Assembly (NCBI GenBank): GCA_035416665.1 | Contig: DAOLNQ010000010.1 | Span: 1,228 to 65,227, forward strand | Source of the DNA: Candidatus Saccharicenans sp. | GTDB taxonomy: Bacteria > Acidobacteriota > Aminicenantia > Aminicenantales > Saccharicenantaceae | DNA length: 64,000 bases | Direction: 5' to 3' | Shown here: piece after piece, positions 18,545-60,721 of the stretch | Position numbering within the stretch: position 1 is the first letter of the stretch | Layout: each line of letters begins with the position of its first letter | Translations under genes and position numbers: made by a program | The notes under the pieces: model-generated | What the model was told of the DNA's origin: nothing | Database searches by the model: none | The model's input: the letters and a program-made list of their open reading frames with translations, nothing else

Positions 18545-19755
18545 AAAGAGATGGCTAAGGAAAAGTTTGTAAGGACGAAGCCGCATGTGAACGTAGGGAC
18601 GATAGGGCACATAGATCACGGTAAGACGACGTTGACATCGGCGATAACGAAGGTATTATCGACGAAGGGGATGGCGCAGTACAAGAGTTATGATGAGGTG
18701 GCGAAGGCAGATGCGAAGATGTTCAGGCGAGATGCGACGAAGATATTGACGGTGGCGTTGTCGCATGTGGAGTATGAGACAGAGAAGAGGCACTATGCGC
18801 ACATAGATTGTCCAGGGCACGTGGATTACATCAAGAACATGATCAGTGGGGCAGCGCAGATGGACGGGGCGGTGCTGGTGGTAGCGGCTGATGATGGTCC
18901 GATGCCGCAGACGAGGGAGCATATCTTATTAGCGCGGCAGGTGGATGTACCGGCGATTGTGGTATTTATCAACAAGGTGGACTTAGTGGATGATCCGGAG
19001 ATACTGGACTTAGTGGAGTTAGAGGTGAGGGAGCTTCTGAGCAAGTATGATTTTCCTGGTGACAAGACGCCGGTGATCAGGGGTAGTGCGACGAAGGCGT
19101 TAGCTGATCCAGAGGGAGAAGGCGGGAAGCCGATCTGGGAGTTAGTGAAGGCGATGGATGAGTTTATACCGGAGCCGGTACGGGAGATAGACAAGCCATT
19201 TTTGATGTCGATAGAGGATATATTTTCGATAACAGGACGTGGGACAGTGGTAACGGGGAGGATAGAGCGCGGGGTGGTGAAGGTAGGGGACGAGGTCGAG
19301 ATAGTAGGATTTGGGGAGACGAAGAAGACGGTGGTGACAGGGATAGAGATGTTCCGGAAGATACTGGATCAGGGACAGGCTGGAGACAATGTAGGATGTT
19401 TGTTGAGGGGGATAGGTAAGGATGAAGTGGAGAGGGGACAGGTTTTAGCGAAGCCCGGGACGATCACACCGCACAAGAGATTTAAGGCGCAGATATATGC
19501 GTTGACGAAGGATGAAGGTGGTAGGCACACGCCGTTTTTCAATGGTTATCGTCCGCAGTTTTATTTTCGGACGACTGATGTGACGGGGTCAGTGAAGCTA
19601 CCGGCTGGAGTAGAGATGGTGATGCCAGGAGACAATGCGGAGGTAGAGGTGGAACTGATCACGACGGTGGCGATGGAGAAGGGGCTGAGATTTGCTATCA
19701 GAGAGGGCGGACGGACGGTTGGCGCTGGTACCGTCACCGAAATCCTGGAATAGAG
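18534..19755 (+). repeat. 1222-bp direct repeat, copy 2 (last 11 nt of fusA plus tuf)
   Basis: Identical to 2388..3609. The repeat begins inside the fusA 3' end (CGAGGAGGTAA) and ends 2 nt after the tuf TAG. Confidence 0.85.
18551..19753 (+). CDS. tuf: elongation factor Tu (copy 2)
   Basis: 400 aa, identical to copy 1. Canonical str-operon position after fusA. Confidence 0.95.
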
Positions 19756-52531: not shown

Positions 52532-53410
52532 ATGAATCAGAAAGAATTACCCGAGGTCAACATTGGCATTCTGGGGGGGACTGGTCTCTATCAGATTGAT
52601 GGCTTGCGTCAGGCTCGCGAAATTTCTTTAGATACCCCCTTCGGCCCGCCATCCGATAGCTATATCGTTGGTGAACTGGAAGGGATGACGGTGGCTTTCT
52701 TGAGCCGTCATGGGCGGGGTCACCGTTATATGCCATCTGAAGTCAACTATCGGGCGAATTTCTTTGGTTTTAAGTTGCTGGGCGTCAAAAGAGTAATTTC
52801 GGTTAACTCCGTTGGCTCACTTAAGGAAGAAATAAAGCCCAGGGATATTGTTCTGGCTGATCAGTTTTTTGACCGGACGAGACGTCCCAACACCTTCTTT
52901 GGGCAAGGGCTGGTGGCTCATATCAGCCTGGCCCATCCGGTCTGCCCGGTTTTATCCAGGCATGTTTACCAGGTAGCCAGAGAGCTTGACCTGACCGTTC
53001 ATCCGGCAGGGACTTATGTCTGCATTGAGGGCCCGGCCTTTTCGACCGTCGCTGAGTCTAAGGTTTATCGTCAGTTTGGAGCCGATGTAATCGGGATGAC
53101 TGCTGCGACTGAAGCCAGACTGGCCAGGGAAGCGGAAATGTGTTATGTCACCCTGAATCTGGTCACTGATTATGATGTCTGGAAAAGCCAGGAAGAGTCG
53201 GTGACTGTCGAGCTGGTTCTGGCCAATCTTCAGGCTAATATTGCCAACGCCAAGAATATCATCAAAAAAGCACTGGCCTCGATTGATCAGCTTGAAGGTG
53301 AAAAGTGTGATTGCCAGGAAGGACTTAAAAACACCATCATCACTGCCCCCCAGGCCAGAGATCCCCAGACGGTGAAAAATTTGTGGCCGCTTATTGGTAA
53401 GTACCTGTAA
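52532..53410 (+). CDS. mtnP: S-methyl-5'-thioadenosine phosphorylase
   Basis: 292 aa, PNP/MTAP family (IGILGGTGLY, FLSRHGRGH, YVCIEGPAFST, GMT). Confidence 0.88.
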   Translation: MNQKELPEVNIGILGGTGLYQIDGLRQAREISLDTPFGPPSDSYIVGELEGMTVAFLSRHGRGHRYMPSEVNYRANFFGFKLLGVKRVISVNSVGSLKEEIKPRDIVLADQFFDRTRRPNTFFGQGLVAHISLAHPVCPVLSRHVYQVARELDLTVHPAGTYVCIEGPAFSTVAESKVYRQFGADVIGMTAATEARLAREAEMCYVTLNLVTDYDVWKSQEESVTVELVLANLQANIANAKNIIKKALASIDQLEGEKCDCQEGLKNTIITAPQARDPQTVKNLWPLIGKYL

Positions 53411-53422
53411 ACGAGGCCAGCT

Positions 53423-54322
53423 TTGAATCTGGTCATTGTTGGTTCGGTAGCCTTTGACACCATTGAAACACCAGCTGGCCGACGGGATCGAATTCCCGGA
53501 GGTTCTGGGACTTATGCCTCTGTAGCCGCCAGTTTTTTTACCAGACCCGGGCTGGTTTCGATAGTTGGCCAGGATTTTCCGCGATCCATTCTGGCCCTCC
53601 TCCGTTCAAGAGATATTGATTTAGCCGGGCTCAAAATAAAAAAGGGAAAAACTTTAGCCTGGCATGGACTGTATGCTGCTGATCCCAATCAGCGGACCAC
53701 TCTCAGGACCGAACTCAATGTCTGGCAGGATTTCCGGCCAGTTATCCCTGCCAGTTACCGGCGGGCAGACATCATTTTTCTTTCCAATCTTGATCCCGAC
53801 AGCCACGATTATATTCTGTCTCAAATGAAGGGGGTTAAACTGGTGGCCATGGATACTATTCGTTACTGGATCGAAACCAAGCCAGAGGCTCTTTTCCAGG
53901 CAATCCAGAAGGTAGATATTTTGTTCGCTAATGAAGAAGAGGCACGCCTTTTGAGCAGTGAATTCAATCTGGTCAGGGCTGGCCGCCAGCTTCAGTCTTC
54001 TGGCCCAAAAATAATTATTGTCAAGAAAGGGGAGCATGGGGCCATGGTTTTTGGCCGTAATTTTGTCTTCAGCGTGGTGGCCAATCCGTGTGAGAACGTA
54101 GTTGATCCAACAGGAGCTGGAGATGCCTTTGCCGGTGCTTTCCTTGGCTACCTGGCCAGCCTTGGGAAATTTAACCGCCGTGAGATAAAAAAGGCAGCTG
54201 TCTATGGCAATCTGGTTGCTTCTCTGGCTATTGAAGATTTTGGTCTGTCCGGTTTGCTTCGGGCTTCAGAGCTTGATCTCATCCAGAGATATAAGAATTT
54301 TAAAAAAATCGTTTCATTCTAA
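53423..54322 (+). CDS. PfkB-family carbohydrate/nucleoside kinase
   Basis: 299 aa, TTG start. GGSGTYASV and DPTGAGDAFAGAF. Confidence 0.8.
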   Translation: MNLVIVGSVAFDTIETPAGRRDRIPGGSGTYASVAASFFTRPGLVSIVGQDFPRSILALLRSRDIDLAGLKIKKGKTLAWHGLYAADPNQRTTLRTELNVWQDFRPVIPASYRRADIIFLSNLDPDSHDYILSQMKGVKLVAMDTIRYWIETKPEALFQAIQKVDILFANEEEARLLSSEFNLVRAGRQLQSSGPKIIIVKKGEHGAMVFGRNFVFSVVANPCENVVDPTGAGDAFAGAFLGYLASLGKFNRREIKKAAVYGNLVASLAIEDFGLSGLLRASELDLIQRYKNFKKIVSF

Positions 54323-54384
54323 GGGTCAAAATATAATAAAATCTTCATATTGAGTTTGGAAATAATTTTTTGGGGGTGGAAGAT

Positions 54385-55773
54385 ATGAACATAAAAAATC
54401 TAAGACCGCCGCTTGAACCTTTCCGCATTAAGACCGTGGAAAGGATTAAGCCGACCAGCCGCCGGGAAAGAGAAAACATTCTGAAAGAGGCTGGCTTTAA
54501 TGTCTTCAATATTCCGGCTGAAAAAGTCTTAATTGACCTGCTGACTGATTCTGGCACCTCAGCGATGAGTGATCAACAATGGGCTGGTTTGATGGTTGGT
54601 GATGAGTCTTACGCTGGAGCCAGAAGTTTCTATCACTTCGAAGCAGCCGTTAAAAACATCTTTTGCTTTAAACATGTTATTCCGGCTCATCAGGGCCGGG
54701 CGGCAGAAAGAATTCTGTTCGGGGCTATGGTCAAAAAGGGAGATTTTGTCCCGAGCAATAATCATTTTGATACCACCAGGGCTAATATCGAAGCCAGAGA
54801 AGCTTCAGCTGTTGACCTGGTCATCGATGAAGCCTATGATCCTGATTCTGATTTTCCGTTTAAGGGTGATCTGGACACGATCAAGCTTAAAAAGTTTATT
54901 GAAAAAAAGGGAACCAAAAAGATACCGCTGGCCATGCTGACCATAACCAATAACAGTGGTGGCGGTCAGCCGGTTTCACTTAAAAATATTAAAGAGGTCA
55001 GTCAGATCTGCAAGCAGCACAAAATCCCGCTTTTCTTTGATGCCTGCCGTTTTGCTGAGAATGCTTATTTTATTAAAAAACGTGAGAAGGGCTATGAGAA
55101 TAAAAGTATTCTGGAAATAGCTCAGGAGATTTTTTCCTATGGCCAGGGAGCGACGATGAGTGCCAAAAAGGATGCCCTGGTTAACATTGGCGGTTTTGTC
55201 ACTCTGGATGATGACCAGCTGGCGGAGAAGATCAAAAATTTATTAATTTTAGGCGAGGGCTTCCCAACTTATGGAGGACTGGCCGGACGCGATCTGGAGG
55301 CTATAGCTCGCGGGCTGGAGGAGGTGCTGGAAGAGGATTATCTTGATTACCGGGTCGGTCAGGTGGCTTACCTTGGACAATTGCTTGATCAGGCCGGTGT
55401 ACCGGTGCTCAAGCCATTTGGCGGTCATGCCATTTACCTTTTAGCCGATCGTTTCTTATCCCATATTCCGAGGCATCAATATCCGGGCTGGGCTCTGACC
55501 GTAGCTCTTTACCGGCAAGCCGGTATCAGAACATCAGAAATCGGGGCAGTGATGTTTGCCAAAAAGGATCCAAAGACGGGCGGTGAAATTTACCCCAGGC
55601 TGGAGCTGGTGCGCCTGGCTATACCGCGGCGGGTTTATACCAGTGCTCAGATTGAATATGTGGCTGACTCAATCATTAAATTGTATGAAAAGCGGGAAGA
55701 AGTGCGGGGAATGAGAATTGTCCGCGAATCTCCGCAGCTAAGGCATTTCACCATCAGGATGGAAGAAGTCTAA
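54385..55773 (+). CDS. tnaA: tryptophanase / beta-eliminating lyase family (Trp or Tyr indole/phenol-lyase)
   Basis: EPFRIKTVE, DLLTDSGT and SAKKD (PLP lysine). ATG 54385 has GGTGGA 7 nt upstream. The ORF track's TTG 54370 is less likely. Confidence 0.85.
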   Translation: MNIKNLRPPLEPFRIKTVERIKPTSRRERENILKEAGFNVFNIPAEKVLIDLLTDSGTSAMSDQQWAGLMVGDESYAGARSFYHFEAAVKNIFCFKHVIPAHQGRAAERILFGAMVKKGDFVPSNNHFDTTRANIEAREASAVDLVIDEAYDPDSDFPFKGDLDTIKLKKFIEKKGTKKIPLAMLTITNNSGGGQPVSLKNIKEVSQICKQHKIPLFFDACRFAENAYFIKKREKGYENKSILEIAQEIFSYGQGATMSAKKDALVNIGGFVTLDDDQLAEKIKNLLILGEGFPTYGGLAGRDLEAIARGLEEVLEEDYLDYRVGQVAYLGQLLDQAGVPVLKPFGGHAIYLLADRFLSHIPRHQYPGWALTVALYRQAGIRTSEIGAVMFAKKDPKTGGEIYPRLELVRLAIPRRVYTSAQIEYVADSIIKLYEKREEVRGMRIVRESPQLRHFTIRMEEV

Positions 55774-55781
55774 AATAAAAA

Positions 55782-55821
55782 GATAAGAGGAGAAGAGAGA
55801 CAACGCTCTTCCCCTCTTATC
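55782..55821. terminator. bidirectional terminator hairpin between convergent tnaA and trpB2
   Basis: 16-bp stem with one mismatch, GATAAGAGGAGAAGAG / CTCTTCCCCTCTTATC, 8-nt loop. Flanked by an A run (upstream) and TTTTT (downstream). Confidence 0.6.
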
Positions 55822-55847
55822 CTGACTGGACTTTTTACTTACTTCTG

Positions 55848-57131
55848 TCACTTATTTTTGCGGTCATAAGCACTGATATCAAGGAAGCCATGTCCGGAAA
55901 GATTGAATAAAATATTGACCGGTTGGCCCGTCTTTTTAGCCAGAAGAGCTTCATCAATAACAGCTGCTATAGCATGAGCTGATTCTGGCGCAGGCAGAAT
56001 ACCTTCTGTCCTGAGAAAAAGTTCTGCCGCCTCGAAAACTCTGTCCTGGGGATAGGCTTTAGCTTCGACCAGTCCTTGCTTGACCAGATGGCTGACCAGC
56101 GGGGACATGCCGTGATAGCGCAAGCCGCCGGCATGAATGGCTGGAGGGATGAAGTCTTTGCCCAGAGTGTACATGTAAAGTAAAGGGGTGAGGCCAACGC
56201 TGTCGCCAAAATCATAGGTCAGTTCTCCAGCGGTAAGAGAAGGACAGACCTCTGGTTCAACAGCTAAGTATCTAGTGGCGGCTTTTTCTTTCAAATTACG
56301 TCGAACAAAGGGAAAACTTAAACCGGCAAAATTGGAGCCACCGCCAACACAACCAACAATCAGATCTGGCTCGAAACCAATTTCACGACATTGAGATTGA
56401 GCTTCGAGGCCAATGATTGACTGATGAATCATGACAGTATCAAGCACCGAGCCTAAAGAATATTTGACCTCAGGACTTTTCAGGGCTACTTCGACTGCTT
56501 CAGAAATAGCGATGCCGAGGCTGCCCGGATGATCTGGATTTTCCTGATAATATTTTCGGCCGGCATCGGTAGTTGGACTGGGGCTTTCGGTGACTTCGCC
56601 GCCAAAAAGTTGCATCATGATACGTCGGCCAGGTTTCTGGCGGAAGCTGCTTCTGACCATATAAACCCGGGCTTTAACTCCGAAAAGTGCACCAGCATAG
56701 GACAGAGCTGTGCCCCACTGTCCGGCTCCGGTCTCGGTGGAAAGAGTGGTCACTCCATCCTGACTCGCTAAATAGGCCTGCATAAGGGCAGTATTGGTCT
56801 TGTGGCTGCCGGTCGGGCTGACCCCTTCAAATTTATAGAAGATCCTGGCCGGGGTATCGAGATAAGATTCCAGTTTAGAAGCCTGGATGAGAGGAGTTGG
56901 CCGAAAAACTGAATAAGCTTCGCGCACTTTCTCAGGTATAGCCAACTCTCGCTCCAGTGAAACCTCCTGAGCGATAAAGCTTTTGGGAAAAATAGCTTCC
57001 AGATCGGAAGAATTGAGGGGTTCTCTGGTCGCCGGGTTCAGGGGTGGTGGGGGCAACTCAGGCAGATCAGCCTTTAGATTGTAAAAATTAGCTGGCAAAT
57101 GTTTTTCATGTCTTGAGGCATACCTCAACAT
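55848..57131 (-). CDS. trpB: TrpB-like PLP-dependent enzyme (tryptophan synthase beta, TrpB2 class)
   Basis: 427 aa. N-terminal extension with LPELPPPPLNP, PLP lysine in PTGSHKTN, plus TETGAGQWG and GCVGGGSNF. No trpA or other trp genes in the window. Confidence 0.88.
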   Translation of the reverse strand: MLRYASRHEKHLPANFYNLKADLPELPPPPLNPATREPLNSSDLEAIFPKSFIAQEVSLERELAIPEKVREAYSVFRPTPLIQASKLESYLDTPARIFYKFEGVSPTGSHKTNTALMQAYLASQDGVTTLSTETGAGQWGTALSYAGALFGVKARVYMVRSSFRQKPGRRIMMQLFGGEVTESPSPTTDAGRKYYQENPDHPGSLGIAISEAVEVALKSPEVKYSLGSVLDTVMIHQSIIGLEAQSQCREIGFEPDLIVGCVGGGSNFAGLSFPFVRRNLKEKAATRYLAVEPEVCPSLTAGELTYDFGDSVGLTPLLYMYTLGKDFIPPAIHAGGLRYHGMSPLVSHLVKQGLVEAKAYPQDRVFEAAELFLRTEGILPAPESAHAIAAVIDEALLAKKTGQPVNILFNLSGHGFLDISAYDRKNK

Positions 57132-57213
57132 TTTATCCTCCTTGAATTTTTTGTTGTCGAAAAATAAATAAATTAATCAGAGATTAATAAAGTGGTGGTA
57201 AAAGATAGTTCTA

Positions 57214-57231
57214 GGGCGGGTCAGTCCGCCC
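57214..57231 (-). promoter_or_regulatory. GC hairpin in the trpB2 leader overlapping the last Trp codon and the leader-ORF stop
   Basis: Minus strand GGGCGG-ACTGAC-CCGCCC, a 6 G:C/C:G pair stem. The 5' arm begins in codon W28 and the leader stop TGA is in the loop. Confidence 0.55.
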
Positions 57232-57313
57232 ACCAGAACCAGGAAAGAAGGGAAAAAGAGAGGGCAGATTGCGGGCTTAAATTGATCTCGTATAAGCTCA
57301 AATCCTTGCTCAT
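57221..57313 (-). CDS. candidate trp leader peptide (30 aa, MSKDLSLYEINLSPQSALSFSLLSWFWWAD)
   Basis: Hand translation of the minus strand. ATG at 57313, TGA at 57223-57221. TGG codons at positions 25, 27 and 28. Lies between a consensus promoter and trpB2. Below the ORF-track size cutoff. Confidence 0.6.
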   Translation of the reverse strand: MSKDLSLYEINLSPQSALSFSLLSWFWWAD

Positions 57314-57322
57314 TTCTCACTA

Positions 57323-57351
57323 ATTTTAATCATCACTATAGTGGCTGTCAA
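57323..57351 (-). promoter_or_regulatory. sigma-70 consensus-like promoter for leader ORF and trpB2
   Basis: Minus strand TTGACA (57351-57346), 17-nt spacer, TAAAAT (57328-57323). The leader ATG begins 10 nt after the -10 element. Confidence 0.55.
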
Positions 57352-59889: not shown

Positions 59890-59999
59890 ATTAACTTCTC
59901 CGATCCAGGCCTCTATTATTTTTATGGCCCGGCTTTATAGCCAAGAATTTTATCACAGCCGGCCATCTTTTTGAAACGTTTGAGCCAGAAACATGAGTC

Positions 60000-60028
60000 T
60001 TGACTTGGCCAGTGGCTTTCTCTATAAT
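60000..60028 (+). promoter_or_regulatory. near-consensus sigma-70 promoter for the TetR/efflux operon
   Basis: TTGACT (60000-60005), 17-nt spacer, TATAAT (60023-60028). ATG 60035 lies 7 nt downstream. Confidence 0.55.
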
Positions 60029-60034
60029 AAAACT

Positions 60035-60721
60035 ATGAAAACTAAAAATGTTTTATCAGTATCATCATCCGGGGACCAGTTCCGCCAGCGCCTGGTGACT
60101 CAGAGCCGGGAACTTTTCTTCAGGTACGGGTTTAGCCGGGTAAGCATGGATGAACTGGCCGAAGACCTGGGTATTAGCAAGGCCACCATCTACCGCTACT
60201 TTCCGGATAAAGAATCTTTATTGCGCGAAGTTCTGAAAGAGGTCAGGGGGGCTATGCTTTCTCAGCTCGAAGAGCTCCAGAGTAAAGCCGAACTTAGCTG
60301 CCGGGAAAAGCTTATGAATTTTTTCACCTCTCTGGGTCAGACCATGTCTTTAATCAACCGGGAATTGTTGAAAGATATCAGGTTCAAGTTGCCGGACGTC
60401 TGGCAGGAAATTGAAGCCTTCCGCCGTGAAAAAATTTTCCCAATCTTTTGCCAGATGGTTCTGGAAGGTGTAAAGAAAGGAGAAATCCGTTCCGACCTTG
60501 ATGCCAGGTTATTCCTGGAAATTTTCTATTTTCTGGCTCAGGAATTTGTCAACCCGGACTGGCTGGTCAAGAATGATTATGCTCCCTGGCAGCTTCTGGA
60601 TTCCATCATGAGAATATTGTTTTTTGGCATTTTCCTGGAGAAGGATAAGGCAGCCGGAGGAAAAAATGGACGCCACGAAAAAAACAAGAAGAGAAAAGGA
60701 CACAAAGATGAGAAAAAATAA
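60035..60721 (+). CDS. TetR/AcrR-family transcriptional regulator
   Basis: HTH SMDELAEDLGISKATIYRYF. The ORF track's start at 59993 would place the promoter inside the gene, so ATG 60035 (MKTKNVL) is preferred. Lys-rich C-terminal tail. Confidence 0.8.
   Translation: MKTKNVLSVSSSGDQFRQRLVTQSRELFFRYGFSRVSMDELAEDLGISKATIYRYFPDKESLLREVLKEVRGAMLSQLEELQSKAELSCREKLMNFFTSLGQTMSLINRELLKDIRFKLPDVWQEIEAFRREKIFPIFCQMVLEGVKKGEIRSDLDARLFLEIFYFLAQEFVNPDWLVKNDYAPWQLLDSIMRILFFGIFLEKDKAAGGKNGRHEKNKKRKGHKDEKK

What the first reader, a model, noticed from the sequence alone, without database searches (positions are those of the whole stretch)
57132..57351. Unannotated 30-codon leader ORF ending ...S-W-F-W-W-A-D-stop between a consensus promoter and trpB2: candidate tryptophan-sensing attenuator
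- **Promoter (minus strand):** TTGACA, 17 nt, TAAAAT (57351..57323).
- **Leader ORF:** the ATG at 57313 lies only 10 nt after the -10 element, so the ORF would be nearly leaderless. It reads MSKDLSLYEINLSPQSALSFSLLSWFWWAD with TGA at 57223-57221.
- **Trp codons:** three of four consecutive codons are TGG (57241-57239, 57235-57233, 57232-57230). Trp is normally the rarest residue, and the gene 90 nt downstream makes tryptophan.
- **Hairpin at the Trp codons:** the Trp codons run straight into the 5' arm of a 6 G:C/C:G pair hairpin, GGGCGG-ACTGAC-CCGCCC (57231..57214), whose loop contains the leader stop codon.
- **Terminator-like shape:** TGGT immediately 5' of the hairpin (within the TGGTGG of the Trp codons) can pair with ACCA in TACCACCAC downstream. 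That is followed by CTTTATTAAT, giving a terminator-like overall shape whose 5' arm is the Trp codons themselves.
- **Possible anti-SD:** CCTTCTT inside the leader ORF (57251..57245) is complementary, with one G.U pair, to the trpB2 SD AAGGAGG (57143..57137).
- **Proposed mechanism:** a ribosome stalled on WFWW under Trp-tRNA shortage would mask both the hairpin arm and the anti-SD. This could relieve termination, SD sequestration, or both.
- **Novelty and limits:** I am not aware of leader-peptide attenuation described for a stand-alone trpB2. I cannot resolve the exact mechanism (transcriptional, translational or Rho-dependent) by eye.
Basis: partly seen in the sequence, partly recalled or inferred. 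Interest (0 to 1): 0.85.

Follow-up and report, generated by a model that had tools for sequence, protein, structure and literature searches.

The report
Leaderless tryptophan-sensing leader peptide before trpB2
A 30-codon reading frame with three tryptophan codons built into a strong RNA hairpin sits in front of a tryptophan-making gene, recurs in 55 related leaders including some before complete tryptophan operons, and so is very probably a switch that turns these genes on when tryptophan runs short.

Summary
Comparison with related sequences shows the element is real, although the window sequence alone gives no significant signal.

- **Conservation:** the same module occurs upstream of trpB2 in every Aminicenantes-type genome locus with upstream sequence (31 plus the window). 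It also occurs in 25 metagenome contigs.
- **The module:** a sigma-70 promoter, an ATG 6-10 nt after the -10 box (leaderless), a 19-46 codon ORF ending ...W(x)WWA..., an invariant hairpin GGGCGG-N6-CCGCC[C/U] that starts inside the last Trp codon, and a G-poor spacer.
- **Link to tryptophan:** four further contigs carry the module in front of trpE (one continues trpE-trpGD-trpC). This ties it to tryptophan supply.
- **Translation:** the peptide sequence is not conserved, but the frame, the length and the Trp codons are. That is the signature of a regulatory leader peptide.
- **Output is inferred and differs by clade:**
  - In the window's clade the hairpin extends to a 14-bp stem (-19.7 kcal/mol) followed by UCUUUU, which looks like a terminator. 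A weak anti-SD lies just 5' of the Trp codons.
  - Sister clades lack the U tract but have anti-SD:SD duplexes of -20 to -28 kcal/mol.
- **Known families:** there is no antiterminator and no Rfam match. The closest analogue is the mycobacterial leaderless poly-Cys short ORFs.
- **Verdict:** a new variant of a known kind, untested experimentally.

The parts
57323..57351 (-). Sigma-70-type promoter TTGACA-17-TAAAAT. The expected transcription start is at about 57316-57313, which makes the mRNA leaderless.
   Evidence: The promoter matches 11 of 12 consensus positions. A promoter in the same position is conserved in related leaders, with the ATG 6-10 nt after the -10 box in 43 of 47.
57221..57313 (-). 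Leader ORF of 30 codons plus TGA: MSKDLSLYEINLSPQSALSFSLLSWFWWAD*. The Trp codons are W25 (57241-39), W27 (57235-33) and W28 (57232-30).
   Evidence: The sequence is confirmed. The frame is open in all 32 genome leaders, whereas the other two frames are open for a median of 15-16 codons. Thirteen distinct leaders have exactly 30 codons despite unrelated N-terminal sequences, and substitutions are spread evenly over codon positions.
57266..57305 (-). P1, a weak hairpin inside the 5' half of the leader ORF. It may act as a pause or timing hairpin; this role is inferred.
   Evidence: P1 appears in the MFE structure. Over 48 leaders this segment folds better than dinucleotide shuffles (mean z = -0.97), but in the window z is only -0.38.
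57242..57268 (-). Pyrimidine tract directly 5' of the Trp codons. It contains the anti-SD CCTTCTT (57251-57245).
   Evidence: The tract pairs with AAGGAGG in the MFE structure, and 0.85 of the SD's pairing goes to it. The window's duplex is only -9.2 kcal/mol. Across the family, each tract binds its own SD better than other leaders' SDs (permutation p = 0.0002).
57206..57241 (-). Extended hairpin. The core P2 is GGGCGG (57231-26) / CCGCCC (57219-14). It is extended by UGGUUCU (57241-35) pairing with AGAACUA (57212-06). The 5' strand consists of the W25-F-W27-W28-A codons, and the stop codon is in the loop.
   Evidence: The hairpin has dG -19.7 kcal/mol. In the transcript truncated at the U tract its pair probabilities are 0.77-1.0. 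The P2 core is invariant in 39 of 39 aligned leaders, with 7 G-C to G-U changes at the closing pair. The extension is seen only in the window's clade.
57200..57205 (-). UCUUUU tract immediately 3' of the extended stem. This is the putative premature termination point, giving a transcript of about 115 nt.
   Evidence: A U tract of 5-7 U in 9 nt follows the extended stem in WIN, L001, L002, L004, L067 and L103. It is lost in L003 and absent in other clades. The consensus scan does not call it a terminator.
57144..57199 (-). G-poor A/U/C spacer between the attenuator and the trpB2 ribosome-binding site.
   Evidence: The window's spacer is 4.5% G. Across the family the spacer is 9% G and 23% C, against 21-26% in the window as a whole.
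57129..57143 (-). trpB2 Shine-Dalgarno AAGGAGG (57143-37) and start codon ATG (57131-29).
   Evidence: The sequence is confirmed. The SD's predicted unpaired probability is 0.14 in the window. The median is 0.14 over 55 leaders, against 0.39 for 41 other SDs in the window (Mann-Whitney p = 2e-7).
55848..57131 (-). trpB2, the regulated gene. It encodes a stand-alone TrpB-like PLP enzyme that makes Trp from indole and serine. It is monocistronic.
   Evidence: The protein matches NF009057 and TIGR01415 above their cut-offs and Pfam PALP. A canonical terminator follows at 55823..55780.

Best explanation
This is a ribosome-mediated attenuator that reads the supply of charged tRNA-Trp.

**How it works**
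1. Transcription starts at or within a few bases of the leader ATG, so a 70S ribosome loads on the 5' end while RNA polymerase is still in the leader.
2. The three Trp codons (W25, W27, W28) form the 5' strand of a 14-bp hairpin. The anti-SD tract lies within the 12-15 nt behind them.
3. When Trp-tRNA is plentiful, the ribosome runs to the UGA in the hairpin loop and leaves. The hairpin then snaps shut. In this clade it is followed by UCUUUU and ends most transcripts at about 57200. Any RNA that reads through has its trpB2 SD paired with the pyrimidine tract.
4. When Trp-tRNA is scarce, the ribosome waits on a Trp codon. Its footprint holds the 5' strand of the hairpin and the anti-SD at once. 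Polymerase therefore passes the U tract, and the SD is available.

**What is shown and what is inferred**
- Shown by comparison: the translated leaderless ORF, the Trp codons, the hairpin in fixed register with them, and the association with trpB2 and trpE.
- Inferred: that termination is the main output here, that SD occlusion backs it up, and all of the timing.
For: **Module conservation**
- The module is present in 31 of 31 Aminicenantes-type trpB2 loci with upstream sequence, plus the window.
- It precedes trpB2 in 25 metagenome contigs.
- It precedes trpE in 4 contigs; one of these continues trpE-trpGD-trpC.

**Evidence for translation**
- The frame is always open.
- A 3-nt indel preserves the frame.
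- Length is conserved while the peptide is not.
- The ATG lies 6-10 nt after the -10 box in 43 of 47 leaders.

**Link between hairpin and Trp codons**
- The hairpin starts at nt 2 of the last Trp codon, or 3 nt later. Its distance from the promoter varies with ORF length from 19 to 46 codons.

**Terminator in the window's clade**
- The hairpin has dG -19.7 kcal/mol and pair probabilities of 0.77-1.0 in the truncated transcript.
- An extended stem plus U tract is found in 6 clade members.
- The genome uses stem-plus-U-tract terminators, as at the trpB2 3' end.

**SD occlusion**
- Median SD unpaired probability is 0.14, against 0.39 for other genes in the window (p = 2e-7).
- Cognate anti-SD:SD duplexes are stronger than non-cognate ones (p = 0.0002), reaching -28 kcal/mol in sister clades and in a trpE leader.

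**Precedent**
- Stalled ribosomes unmasking an SD from a leaderless short ORF have been demonstrated in mycobacteria (10.1101/834739).
Against: - **No experimental data** of any kind exist for this element.
- **Hairpin covariation:** the core hairpin never varies, so covariation gives it no statistical support. The extension is not above shuffled controls family-wide.
- **Weak terminator features:** the U tract has only 4 consecutive U's and the consensus terminator scan does not call it. It is absent from most clades, and L003 lost it.
- **Ribosome passage:** the ribosome must pass through the hairpin in both states, so termination requires fast release at the stop codon. No antiterminator exists.
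- **Weak anti-SD in the window:** the window's own anti-SD duplex is only -9.2 kcal/mol and ranks 0.56-0.72 among non-cognate pairs.
- **Footprint masking:** masking a stalled-ribosome footprint raises predicted SD accessibility only from 0.14 to 0.21, because other pyrimidine or U-rich tracts take over.
- **Non-independence:** the sequences are phylogenetically related, so the p-values are optimistic.
Confidence: 0.55

Rival explanations
1. The sensor is the same, but the output is purely translational. The hairpin acts only as a clamp that brings the pyrimidine tract next to the SD. A ribosome stalled on the Trp codons frees the trpB2 ribosome-binding site, and there is no regulated termination. 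This is the mechanism of the mycobacterial Cys short ORFs and of ermC.
For: - The SD is predicted to be paired in nearly all leaders.
- Cognate duplexes are preferred over non-cognate ones, and reach -20 to -28 kcal/mol in clades without a U tract and in the trpE leader L148.
- The anti-SD lies within the footprint of a ribosome stalled at the Trp codons.
- A demonstrated precedent exists.
Against: - The window's duplex is weak (-9.2 kcal/mol).
- Groups C and L160 have no upstream anti-SD (-2 to -7 kcal/mol).
- Footprint masking hardly frees the SD in silico.
- The model does not explain why the GC hairpin is invariant.
- The module also occurs 129-343 nt from the gene in L005 and L008.
Confidence: 0.3
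2. The output is Rho-dependent. After release at the leader stop codon, the naked G-poor, C-richer spacer loads Rho. Ribosome stalling or trpB2 translation prevents this, in a tna-like or mgtA-like manner.
For: - The spacer is 9% G and 23% C, with CCAUCC, CCACC or CCCCC runs just after the hairpin in most leaders.
- No canonical terminator is present in most clades.
Against: - A ribosome stalled at the Trp codons ends about 25 nt before the C-rich tract, so it would expose that tract rather than cover it.
- The spacer is short, at 50-75 nt.
- No G-rich partner exists that could sequester a rut site in the stalled state.
- In the window the spacer is mostly A/U, with 18% C.
Confidence: 0.08
3. 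GGGCGG-N6-CCGCCC is a DNA palindrome bound by a dimeric repressor acting as a roadblock or operator. On this view the ORF is incidental.
For: - Both arms are invariant in sequence with no covariation.
- The spacing is 6 nt in most leaders.
Against: - The palindrome's position is fixed relative to the Trp codons, not relative to the promoter; its position varies with ORF lengths of 19-46 codons.
- C-to-U changes keep a G-U pair only in the sense RNA in 7 leaders.
- L004 has GGGGGG/CCCCCC.
- The loop is 5 nt in L005 and L016.
- The ORF and its frame are conserved throughout.
Confidence: 0.03
4. The leader encodes a TnaC-like arrest peptide that senses free tryptophan or indole in the ribosomal exit tunnel, rather than sensing codon starvation.
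For: - The C-terminal WWA motif is conserved.
- A tryptophanase-like gene lies next door in this clade.
Against: - The distance from WW to the stop codon varies from 2 to 9 codons, and the flanking residues vary.
- WWA is explained by the RNA constraint UGGUGGGCGG, and becomes WWRA when 3 nt are inserted.
- Induction by high Trp is the wrong logic for trpE operons, which carry the same leader.
Confidence: 0.03
5. The leader encodes a small functional protein, or the ORF is a chance one.
For: The window's leader alone does not fold better than shuffles (z = -1.61).
Against: - The module recurs in 55 distinct leaders.
- The N-terminal two thirds of the peptide is unconserved and substitutions are equal at all codon positions.
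- The module is associated with two different Trp-pathway genes.
Confidence: 0.01

Closest known systems
Mycobacterial leaderless polycysteine short ORFs (the 'Cys ribulon'; Canestrari et al., bioRxiv 10.1101/834739)
   Same: - A leaderless short ORF is the first cistron.
- The regulatory codons are clustered near its 3' end.
- A ribosome stalled there blocks an RNA structure that otherwise sequesters the SD of the next gene.
- Several loci of one pathway share the device.
   Different: - The amino acid sensed is Trp, not Cys, and the phylum is different.
- Here the codons themselves (UGG) cannot pair with the SD; a neighbouring pyrimidine tract does so instead.
- An invariant GC hairpin overlaps the codons.
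- In the window's clade that hairpin looks like a terminator.
- There is no sequence relationship between the two systems.
Classical trp leader-peptide attenuator (E. coli trpL, Rfam RF00513; Corynebacterium and Streptomyces trp attenuators, PMC1262725)
   Same: - A short ORF with 2-3 adjacent Trp codons lies upstream of Trp-biosynthesis genes.
- A GC-rich hairpin lies between the leader and the first gene.
- The logic is the same: starvation switches expression on.
   Different: - The leader ORF here is leaderless rather than SD-led.
- The Trp codons lie in the 5' arm of the hairpin itself, not in an upstream segment 1.
- No alternative antiterminator (2:3) pairing was found.
- The stop codon lies in or just after the hairpin.
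- There is no match to RF00513 even at E <= 10.
E. coli pyrBI attenuator
   Same: The leader ORF runs through the terminator hairpin, and the ribosome itself, by sitting on the 5' strand, is the only antiterminator.
   Different: The pyrBI signal is UTP-dependent polymerase pausing, not a hungry codon. That leader is SD-led.
ermC and cat translational attenuation
   Same: A ribosome arrested in a leader ORF remodels the leader RNA so that the SD of the downstream gene becomes free.
   Different: Arrest in those systems is caused by a drug plus the nascent peptide, not by codon starvation. They use a four-segment hairpin cascade, for which the G-poor spacer here offers no partners.
tnaC-tnaA leader
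   Same: It is a Trp-related leader peptide containing W-F, next to a tryptophanase gene.
   Different: TnaC senses free Trp, stalls at the stop codon, blocks Rho and induces catabolism. Here the leader precedes anabolic genes and the spacing between the Trp codons and the stop codon is variable.

Membership tests
Classical leader-peptide transcription attenuator (trpL type, RF00513) | A short leader ORF with tandem codons for the regulating amino acid | tested here: met
   The leader ORF contains WFWW. WW or WxWW is present in all 55 leaders.
Classical leader-peptide transcription attenuator (trpL type, RF00513) | An intrinsic terminator (GC stem plus U tract) before the first structural gene | tested here: inconclusive
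   The window has a 14-bp stem of -19.7 kcal/mol followed by UCUUUU. The consensus scan does not call it a terminator, and the U tract is absent in most clades.
Classical leader-peptide transcription attenuator (trpL type, RF00513) | A mutually exclusive antiterminator (2:3) whose formation depends on ribosome position | tested here: not met
   Constrained folds with a stalled ribosome show no alternative partner for the 3' arm. The spacer is 4-9% G. Only group C has an upstream CGCCCGCC that competes for the 5' arm.
Classical leader-peptide transcription attenuator (trpL type, RF00513) | Sequence and structure match to the Rfam model | tested here: not met
   There is no RF00513 hit or any other relevant hit at gathering score or at E <= 10.
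Leaderless short-ORF translational attenuators (mycobacterial Cys type) | The short ORF starts at the 5' end of the mRNA (leaderless) | tested here: met
   The ATG is 9 nt after the -10 box in the window, and 6-10 nt after it in 43 of 47 leaders. This rests on promoter prediction only; no transcription start site has been mapped.
Leaderless short-ORF translational attenuators (mycobacterial Cys type) | RNA duplex between the stall region and the SD of the downstream gene | tested here: inconclusive
   Such a duplex is present in the MFE structure. Family-wide, cognate duplexes beat non-cognate ones (p = 0.0002). The duplex is weak in the window (-9.2 kcal/mol) and absent in some clades.
Leaderless short-ORF translational attenuators (mycobacterial Cys type) | Expression responds to supply of the amino acid through the codons | not testable with these tools
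   This needs reporter assays or omics data from an uncultured phylum.
T-box riboswitch | Specifier loop, T-box sequence and antiterminator bulge | tested here: not met
   No T-box match was found in the window region at E <= 10, nor at gathering score in the whole window or in 15 related loci.
TnaC-type arrest peptide | Conserved W...D...P-stop spacing, with stalling at the stop codon | tested here: not met
   There is no conserved Pro before the stop codon. The distance from WW to the stop varies from 2 to 9 codons.
TrpB2 (TIGR01415 / NF009057), the regulated gene | Score above the curated cut-off of the equivalog models | tested here: met
   The protein scores 654 bits against a cut-off of 366, and 618 bits against a cut-off of 519. 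It scores only 140 bits against the TrpB1 model TIGR00263, whose cut-off is 392.

The most novel reading that the evidence does not exclude
The invariant hairpin fused to the Trp codons may be a self-contained, portable sensor module. On this reading a ribosome waiting for Trp-tRNA holds one fixed GC hairpin open, and evolution has wired that module to different outputs in different lineages:
- an intrinsic terminator in the window's clade;
- a long anti-SD helix in sister clades;
- closing long-range helices in others.

The module has also been attached to different genes (trpB2, trpE operons). This would be a leader-peptide counterpart of the aptamer/expression-platform modularity of riboswitches. 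The strict invariance of the hairpin might further reflect a new requirement, such as recognition by a factor or amplification of hungry-codon pausing at the ribosome's mRNA entrance.
Probability: 0.25. Interest if true: 0.8.

Novelty: new variant of a known kind. Interest (0 to 1): 0.6.

Why it matters
- **Role of TrpB2.** The in vivo role of stand-alone TrpB2 (indole salvage versus something else) rests mostly on enzymology. A sensor of Trp-tRNA shortage shared with trpE operons is independent genomic evidence that TrpB2 serves tryptophan supply in this lineage. In the window's clade trpB2 sits tail to tail with a tryptophanase-like gene. Unregulated co-expression would cycle Trp and indole, so tight control makes sense.
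- **Reach of leaderless sensory ORFs.** Ribosome-sensing short ORFs of the leaderless kind have so far been shown in mycobacteria. This finding extends them to an uncultured phylum and to tryptophan.
- **A minimal attenuator.** There is no antiterminator, and the regulatory codons lie inside the OFF hairpin. It is small enough to dissect or to reuse as a Trp-responsive part.
- **Annotation.** The finding gives a simple signature for annotating such leaders in metagenomes: promoter, ATG, ...WW, then GGGCGG-N6-CCGCC.

Tried and rejected
1. **Known RNA families.** I searched Rfam over the whole window at gathering score, over the region at E <= 10, and over 15 related loci. The only hits were five tRNAs elsewhere in the window; nothing relevant, and no T-box or Trp_leader, was found.
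RNAfold does not choose it, and the ACCA is not conserved (L002 and L003 differ).
3. **Classical antiterminator.** No alternative partner for the 3' arm was found, because the spacer is G-poor.
4. **Covariation support for the hairpin.** The core is invariant (0 compensatory pairs). The 7-bp extension is not above shuffled controls family-wide (76.6% against 75.9% of cells paired).
5. **A post-hairpin C-rich tract as a specific anti-SD.** It shows no preference for its own SD (p = 0.17).
6. **A clean thermodynamic switch.** Masking a ribosome footprint at the Trp codons raises SD accessibility only from a mean of 0.15 to 0.21.
7. **A family-wide terminator.** Only 5 of 55 leaders have at least 6 U in the 9 nt after the outermost stem, and two of those five (L012, L117) come from local folds that do not extend the core hairpin.
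8. **Other copies of the motif.** None were found in the 64-kb window or in the flanks of the 43 genome loci.
9. **Firmicute and archaeal TrpB2 loci** (<= 60% identity). They have no such leader and no Rfam element.
10. **Metagenome pattern scan.** About two thirds of the 120 hits are chance matches inside GC-rich coding sequence and were discarded.
11. **Literature.** No paper on this element or on regulation of stand-alone trpB2 was found in the held library.
Full report
**1. What is in the window**

- The promoter is TTGACA-17-TAAAAT at 57351..57323.
- Nine bases separate the -10 box from the ATG at 57313.
- The ORF has 30 codons, MSKDLSLYEINLSPQSALSFSLLSWFWWAD, and ends at TGA 57223-57221.
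- The hairpin is GGGCGG-ACTGAC-CCGCCC at 57231..57214, with the stop codon in its loop.
- CCTTCTT lies at 57251-57245 and the SD AAGGAGG at 57143-57137, followed by the ATG of the downstream gene at 57131.

The promoter matches 11 of 12 consensus positions, the joint-best match in 20 kb.

The downstream gene (55848..57131) is a TrpB2-family enzyme. It scores above the curated cut-offs of NF009057 and TIGR01415 and far below that of the TrpB1 model. It is monocistronic, ends in a canonical 18-bp stem plus U-tract terminator (55823..55780), and converges on a tryptophanase-like gene (54370..55773).

The window comes from a Candidatus Aminicenantes (Acidobacteriota) genome. The closest TrpB2 loci, at 86-91% identity, are Aminicenantes and Acidobacteriota MAGs.

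Taken alone, the leader does not fold significantly better than shuffles (z = -1.61). The case rests on comparison.

**2. The element is conserved, and it is translated**

A scan of one genome per species returned 43 TrpB2 loci.
- All 31 loci of the Aminicenantes type that have upstream sequence carry TGGTGGGCGG-N(5-6)-CCGCC[C/T] 50-115 nt upstream of trpB2. Two outliers have it at 129 and 343 nt.
- The 11 firmicute or archaeal loci (<= 60% identity) do not carry it.

In every motif-bearing locus the TGG TGG lies in an open frame that begins with an ATG.
- That frame is open upstream for a median of 32 codons, against 15-16 in the other two frames.
- The peptides end ...SWFWWA[DAV]*, ...CWWAAPSA*, ...SWWADLPAL*, ...FWWAGPSAQ* and ...WVWWRAARSAR*.
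- The last type differs by an inserted CGG (TGGTGG[CGG]GCGG), a 3-nt indel that keeps the frame.
- Thirteen distinct leaders have exactly 30 codons although their first 18 or so codons are unrelated. Substitutions are spread evenly over the three codon positions: 998, 1140 and 1137 differences; 215 synonymous against 1417 non-synonymous codon differences.

So frame, length and Trp codons are under selection, while the peptide is not. This is the pattern of a regulatory leader peptide and not of a functional small protein.

**3. It is leaderless**

In 43 of 47 leaders with a promoter match of at least 9 of 12 positions, the ATG lies 6-10 nt after the -10 hexamer, that is, at the expected transcription start. 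One trpE leader (L160) has a longer, SD-like 5' UTR instead. A second gene in the window, a TetR-family gene, has the same arrangement: TTGACT-17-TATAAT, six bases, then an in-frame ATG at 60035. No transcription start site is mapped, so this remains a prediction.

**4. The same leader precedes tryptophan operons**

- About two thirds are chance matches inside GC-rich coding sequence.
- Twenty-five have the short ORF and a TrpB2 gene downstream.
- Four (L093, L121, L148, L160) have the short ORF, the hairpin and the spacer in front of a different gene.
  - In L093 and L148 that gene scores above the cut-off of the anthranilate synthase component I model (TIGR00564).
  - L121 is a truncated near-identical copy of L093.
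  - The L160 ORF is interrupted after 54 codons and is identified only by N-terminal similarity.
  - In L148 it is followed by trpGD and trpC.

An element shared by trpB2 and trpE, whose only constant coding feature is tandem Trp codons, is most simply a tryptophan-responsive regulator.

No Rfam family matches the element in the window or in 15 related loci. I found no description of it in the held literature.

**5. Anatomy shared by all 55 distinct leaders**

An ungapped alignment of 39 representatives shows T-G-G-T-G-G-G-C-G-G and C-C-G-C-C as the only invariant columns.
- The 30 nt before them are almost purine-free. That tract is 34% C, 41% T and 9% A.
- The spacer after the hairpin is 9% G, with a short purine run, then a C-rich run, then a U-rich run.

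The hairpin core shows no covariation: 5 of 6 pairs never vary, and the closing pair is G-C in 32 leaders and G-U in 7. Its status as RNA rather than as a DNA palindrome therefore rests on other evidence.
- The C-to-U changes keep pairing only in the sense RNA.
- L004 has GGGGGG/CCCCCC.
- The loop is 5 nt in two loci.
- Above all, the hairpin keeps its register with the Trp codons while its distance from the promoter varies with ORF length (19-46 codons).

Part of the invariance is explained by the 5' arm being the codons UGG-GCG-G.

The 5' part of the leader ORF tends to form a hairpin (P1) with different sequences in different clades. Mean z against shuffles is -0.97 over 48 leaders, but only -0.38 in the window.

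**6. The output differs by clade**

*The window's clade.*
- In WIN, L001, L002, L004, L067 and L103 the core hairpin is extended by UGGUUCU:AGAACUA across a GG bulge, giving 14 bp at -19.7 kcal/mol, followed at once by (A/G)UCUUUU(U).
- In a transcript truncated at the U tract the stem forms with pair probabilities of 0.77-1.0.
- L003 has the stem but has lost the U tract.
- This is terminator-like but weak. The consensus scan does not call it, and other clades lack it.

*Sister clades.*
- In L006, L007, L009, L036, L040, L063, L066 and L073, and also in L015 and the trpE leader L148, the pyrimidine tract directly 5' of the Trp codons is complementary to the SD and its flanks. Duplexes are -20 to -28 kcal/mol.
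- The flanks differ between loci in a matching way. For example, L007 has CCUCCUUCAGUGG with CUACUGGAGG, and L015 has a 13-bp duplex.

*Family-wide tests.*
- Over all leaders this tract binds its own SD region better than the SD regions of other leaders: -12.8 against -11.35 +/- 0.30 kcal/mol, permutation p = 0.0002. The C-rich tract after the hairpin does not (p = 0.17).
- The SD is predicted to be paired in almost all leaders. Median unpaired probability is 0.14, against 0.39 for 41 other SDs in the same window (Mann-Whitney p = 2e-7).
- These p-values ignore relatedness and are optimistic.

*The window and other groups.*
- The window's own anti-SD duplex is weak (-9.2 kcal/mol).
- Group C and L160 have essentially no upstream anti-SD.
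- Other groups instead close the domain with long-range helices: AGAUUUUUACA/UGUAAAAAUCU, GAUAGAUU/AAUCUAUC, UUCAGG/CCUGAA. Group C also has an upstream CGCCCGCC that competes for the 5' arm.
- Masking a ribosome footprint at the Trp codons increases predicted SD accessibility only slightly (mean 0.15 to 0.21), because other pyrimidine or U-rich tracts take over in the model.

**7. Mechanism I commit to**

*The sensor (confidence about 0.9).*
- A 70S ribosome initiates on the 5'-terminal AUG and translates the leader.
- If charged tRNA-Trp is short, the ribosome waits with W25, W27 or W28 in the A site.
- With the usual footprint of about 12-15 nt on either side of the P site, it then covers 57256-57223. 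That span contains the anti-SD (57251-45), the whole 5' strand of the extended stem (57241-35) and the 5' arm of the core (57231-26).

*The output in the window (confidence about 0.55 for the combination).*
- With ample Trp-tRNA the ribosome reaches the UGA in the loop and is released. The 14-bp hairpin forms, and polymerase terminates at the UCUUUU tract (57205-57200).
- Read-through RNA has its SD paired with the pyrimidine tract.
- With a stalled ribosome, neither OFF structure can form.
- P1 may hold polymerase until the ribosome has started. This is inferred by analogy with the 1:2 pause hairpin of trpL, from general knowledge.

*The weak point of the termination model.* The ribosome crosses the hairpin in both states, so the difference is only dwell time. 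This is the logic of the pyrBI attenuator (general knowledge), not of trpL.

*Rivals.* A purely translational mechanism is the main rival (0.3), and it is probably the main mechanism in the sister clades. It is exactly what was shown for mycobacterial leaderless poly-Cys short ORFs. Rho dependence (0.08), a DNA operator (0.03), a TnaC-like sensor of free Trp (0.03) and a functional peptide or chance ORF (0.01) fit the data less well, for the reasons given under the rival explanations.

**8. Comparison with known systems, and novelty**

The element works like a leader-peptide attenuator.
- It is not a member of the trpL/RF00513 family. It has no model match, no antiterminator and no SD-led leader, and its regulatory codons lie inside the OFF hairpin.
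- It shares the leaderless short-ORF architecture of the mycobacterial Cys attenuators. It has no sequence relationship with them, senses a different amino acid and has an extra invariant hairpin.

I therefore rate it a new variant of a known kind. It appears to be undescribed, is phylum-wide, and is attached to both trpB2 and trp operons.

It matters mainly for four reasons.
- It is genomic evidence that stand-alone TrpB2 belongs to the tryptophan-starvation response.
- It extends ribosome-sensing leaderless short ORFs beyond mycobacteria.
- It is a compact attenuator design.
- One sensor appears to be coupled to different outputs.

**9. Limits**
- All structures are thermodynamic predictions.
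- The MAG taxonomic labels are unreliable. Several loci are labelled Eubacteriales, Patescibacteria, Brachyspira or Exilispira.
- The metagenome scan was truncated and was biased by the pattern I chose, which required AGGAG 45-75 nt downstream.
- The affiliation of the trpE contigs is unknown.
- No experiment exists.

Noticed in passing
window 60000-60037 (+): A near-consensus promoter, TTGACT-17-TATAAT, lies inside the longest ORF of the TetR-family gene (59993..60721). An in-frame ATG at 60035 follows 6 nt after the -10 box. The gene is probably leaderless and 14 codons shorter than the longest ORF.
   Followed up: partly
window 52532-55773 (+): A PNP/UDP-family phosphorylase gene, a PfkB-family kinase gene and a tryptophanase/tyrosine-phenol-lyase-family gene form a tight cluster that converges on trpB2. 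This synteny is kept in 8 related loci (L001-L004, L006, L007, L009, L036) but not in other clades. Co-expression of the lyase and TrpB2 would cycle Trp and indole.
   Followed up: partly
window 55780-55823: An 18-bp stem with U/A-rich flanks lies between the convergent trpB2 and tryptophanase-like genes. It is probably a shared bidirectional terminator.
   Followed up: no
window 2405-3607 and 18551-19753 (+): Two 400-aa ORFs encode identical proteins (100% over 400 aa). The sequence looks like elongation factor Tu (GHIDHGKTT motif). One copy sits by a tRNA cluster and the other lies between the rpoBC-sized ORFs and the ribosomal-protein-sized ORFs.
   Followed up: partly
L018, L019, L021, L022, L041, L126 (leader, about 35-25 nt before the WW codons): These leaders carry an upstream CGCCCGCC inside the leader ORF that can pair with GGUGGGCG, the 5' arm plus the Trp codons. 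That pairing is more stable than the core hairpin. It is the only clade with a true alternative hairpin. They also have a third Trp codon five codons upstream and a duplicated CCUGAAAAU.
   Followed up: partly
L064:4727-4830: This is a relic of the leader. The hairpin, C-rich tract and SD are intact, but a gene ends 11 nt before the Trp codons, so there is no leader ORF. No trpB2 or other ORF follows the SD.
   Followed up: partly
L047, between the leader and trpB2: An extra 11-codon ORF (MRCPCRTSPIN) with its own SD lies between the Trp leader and the trpB2 start. Here trpB2 starts 141 nt after the CTGG of the Trp codons that begin the motif.
   Followed up: no
L005 (Exilispira MAG) and L008 (Brachyspira-labelled MAG): TrpB2 proteins 70-80% identical to the window's are found in AT-rich contigs labelled as spirochaetes. 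The WW-hairpin motif is still present but lies 343 and 129 nt from the gene, after much longer leader ORFs (69 and 62 codons). This could be horizontal transfer with a decaying leader, or mis-binning.
   Followed up: partly
L028, L029, L031, L032, L034, L035 (firmicute TrpB2 loci), about 60-90 nt upstream of the start: These loci share a different conserved upstream block (…AAGTCTTGCTGAAA.GGACTTTTA.C.TAGAATTAG.TTATA…) and a GTG start. No Rfam match was found. It may be a distinct regulatory site for TrpB2 in that lineage.
   Followed up: no
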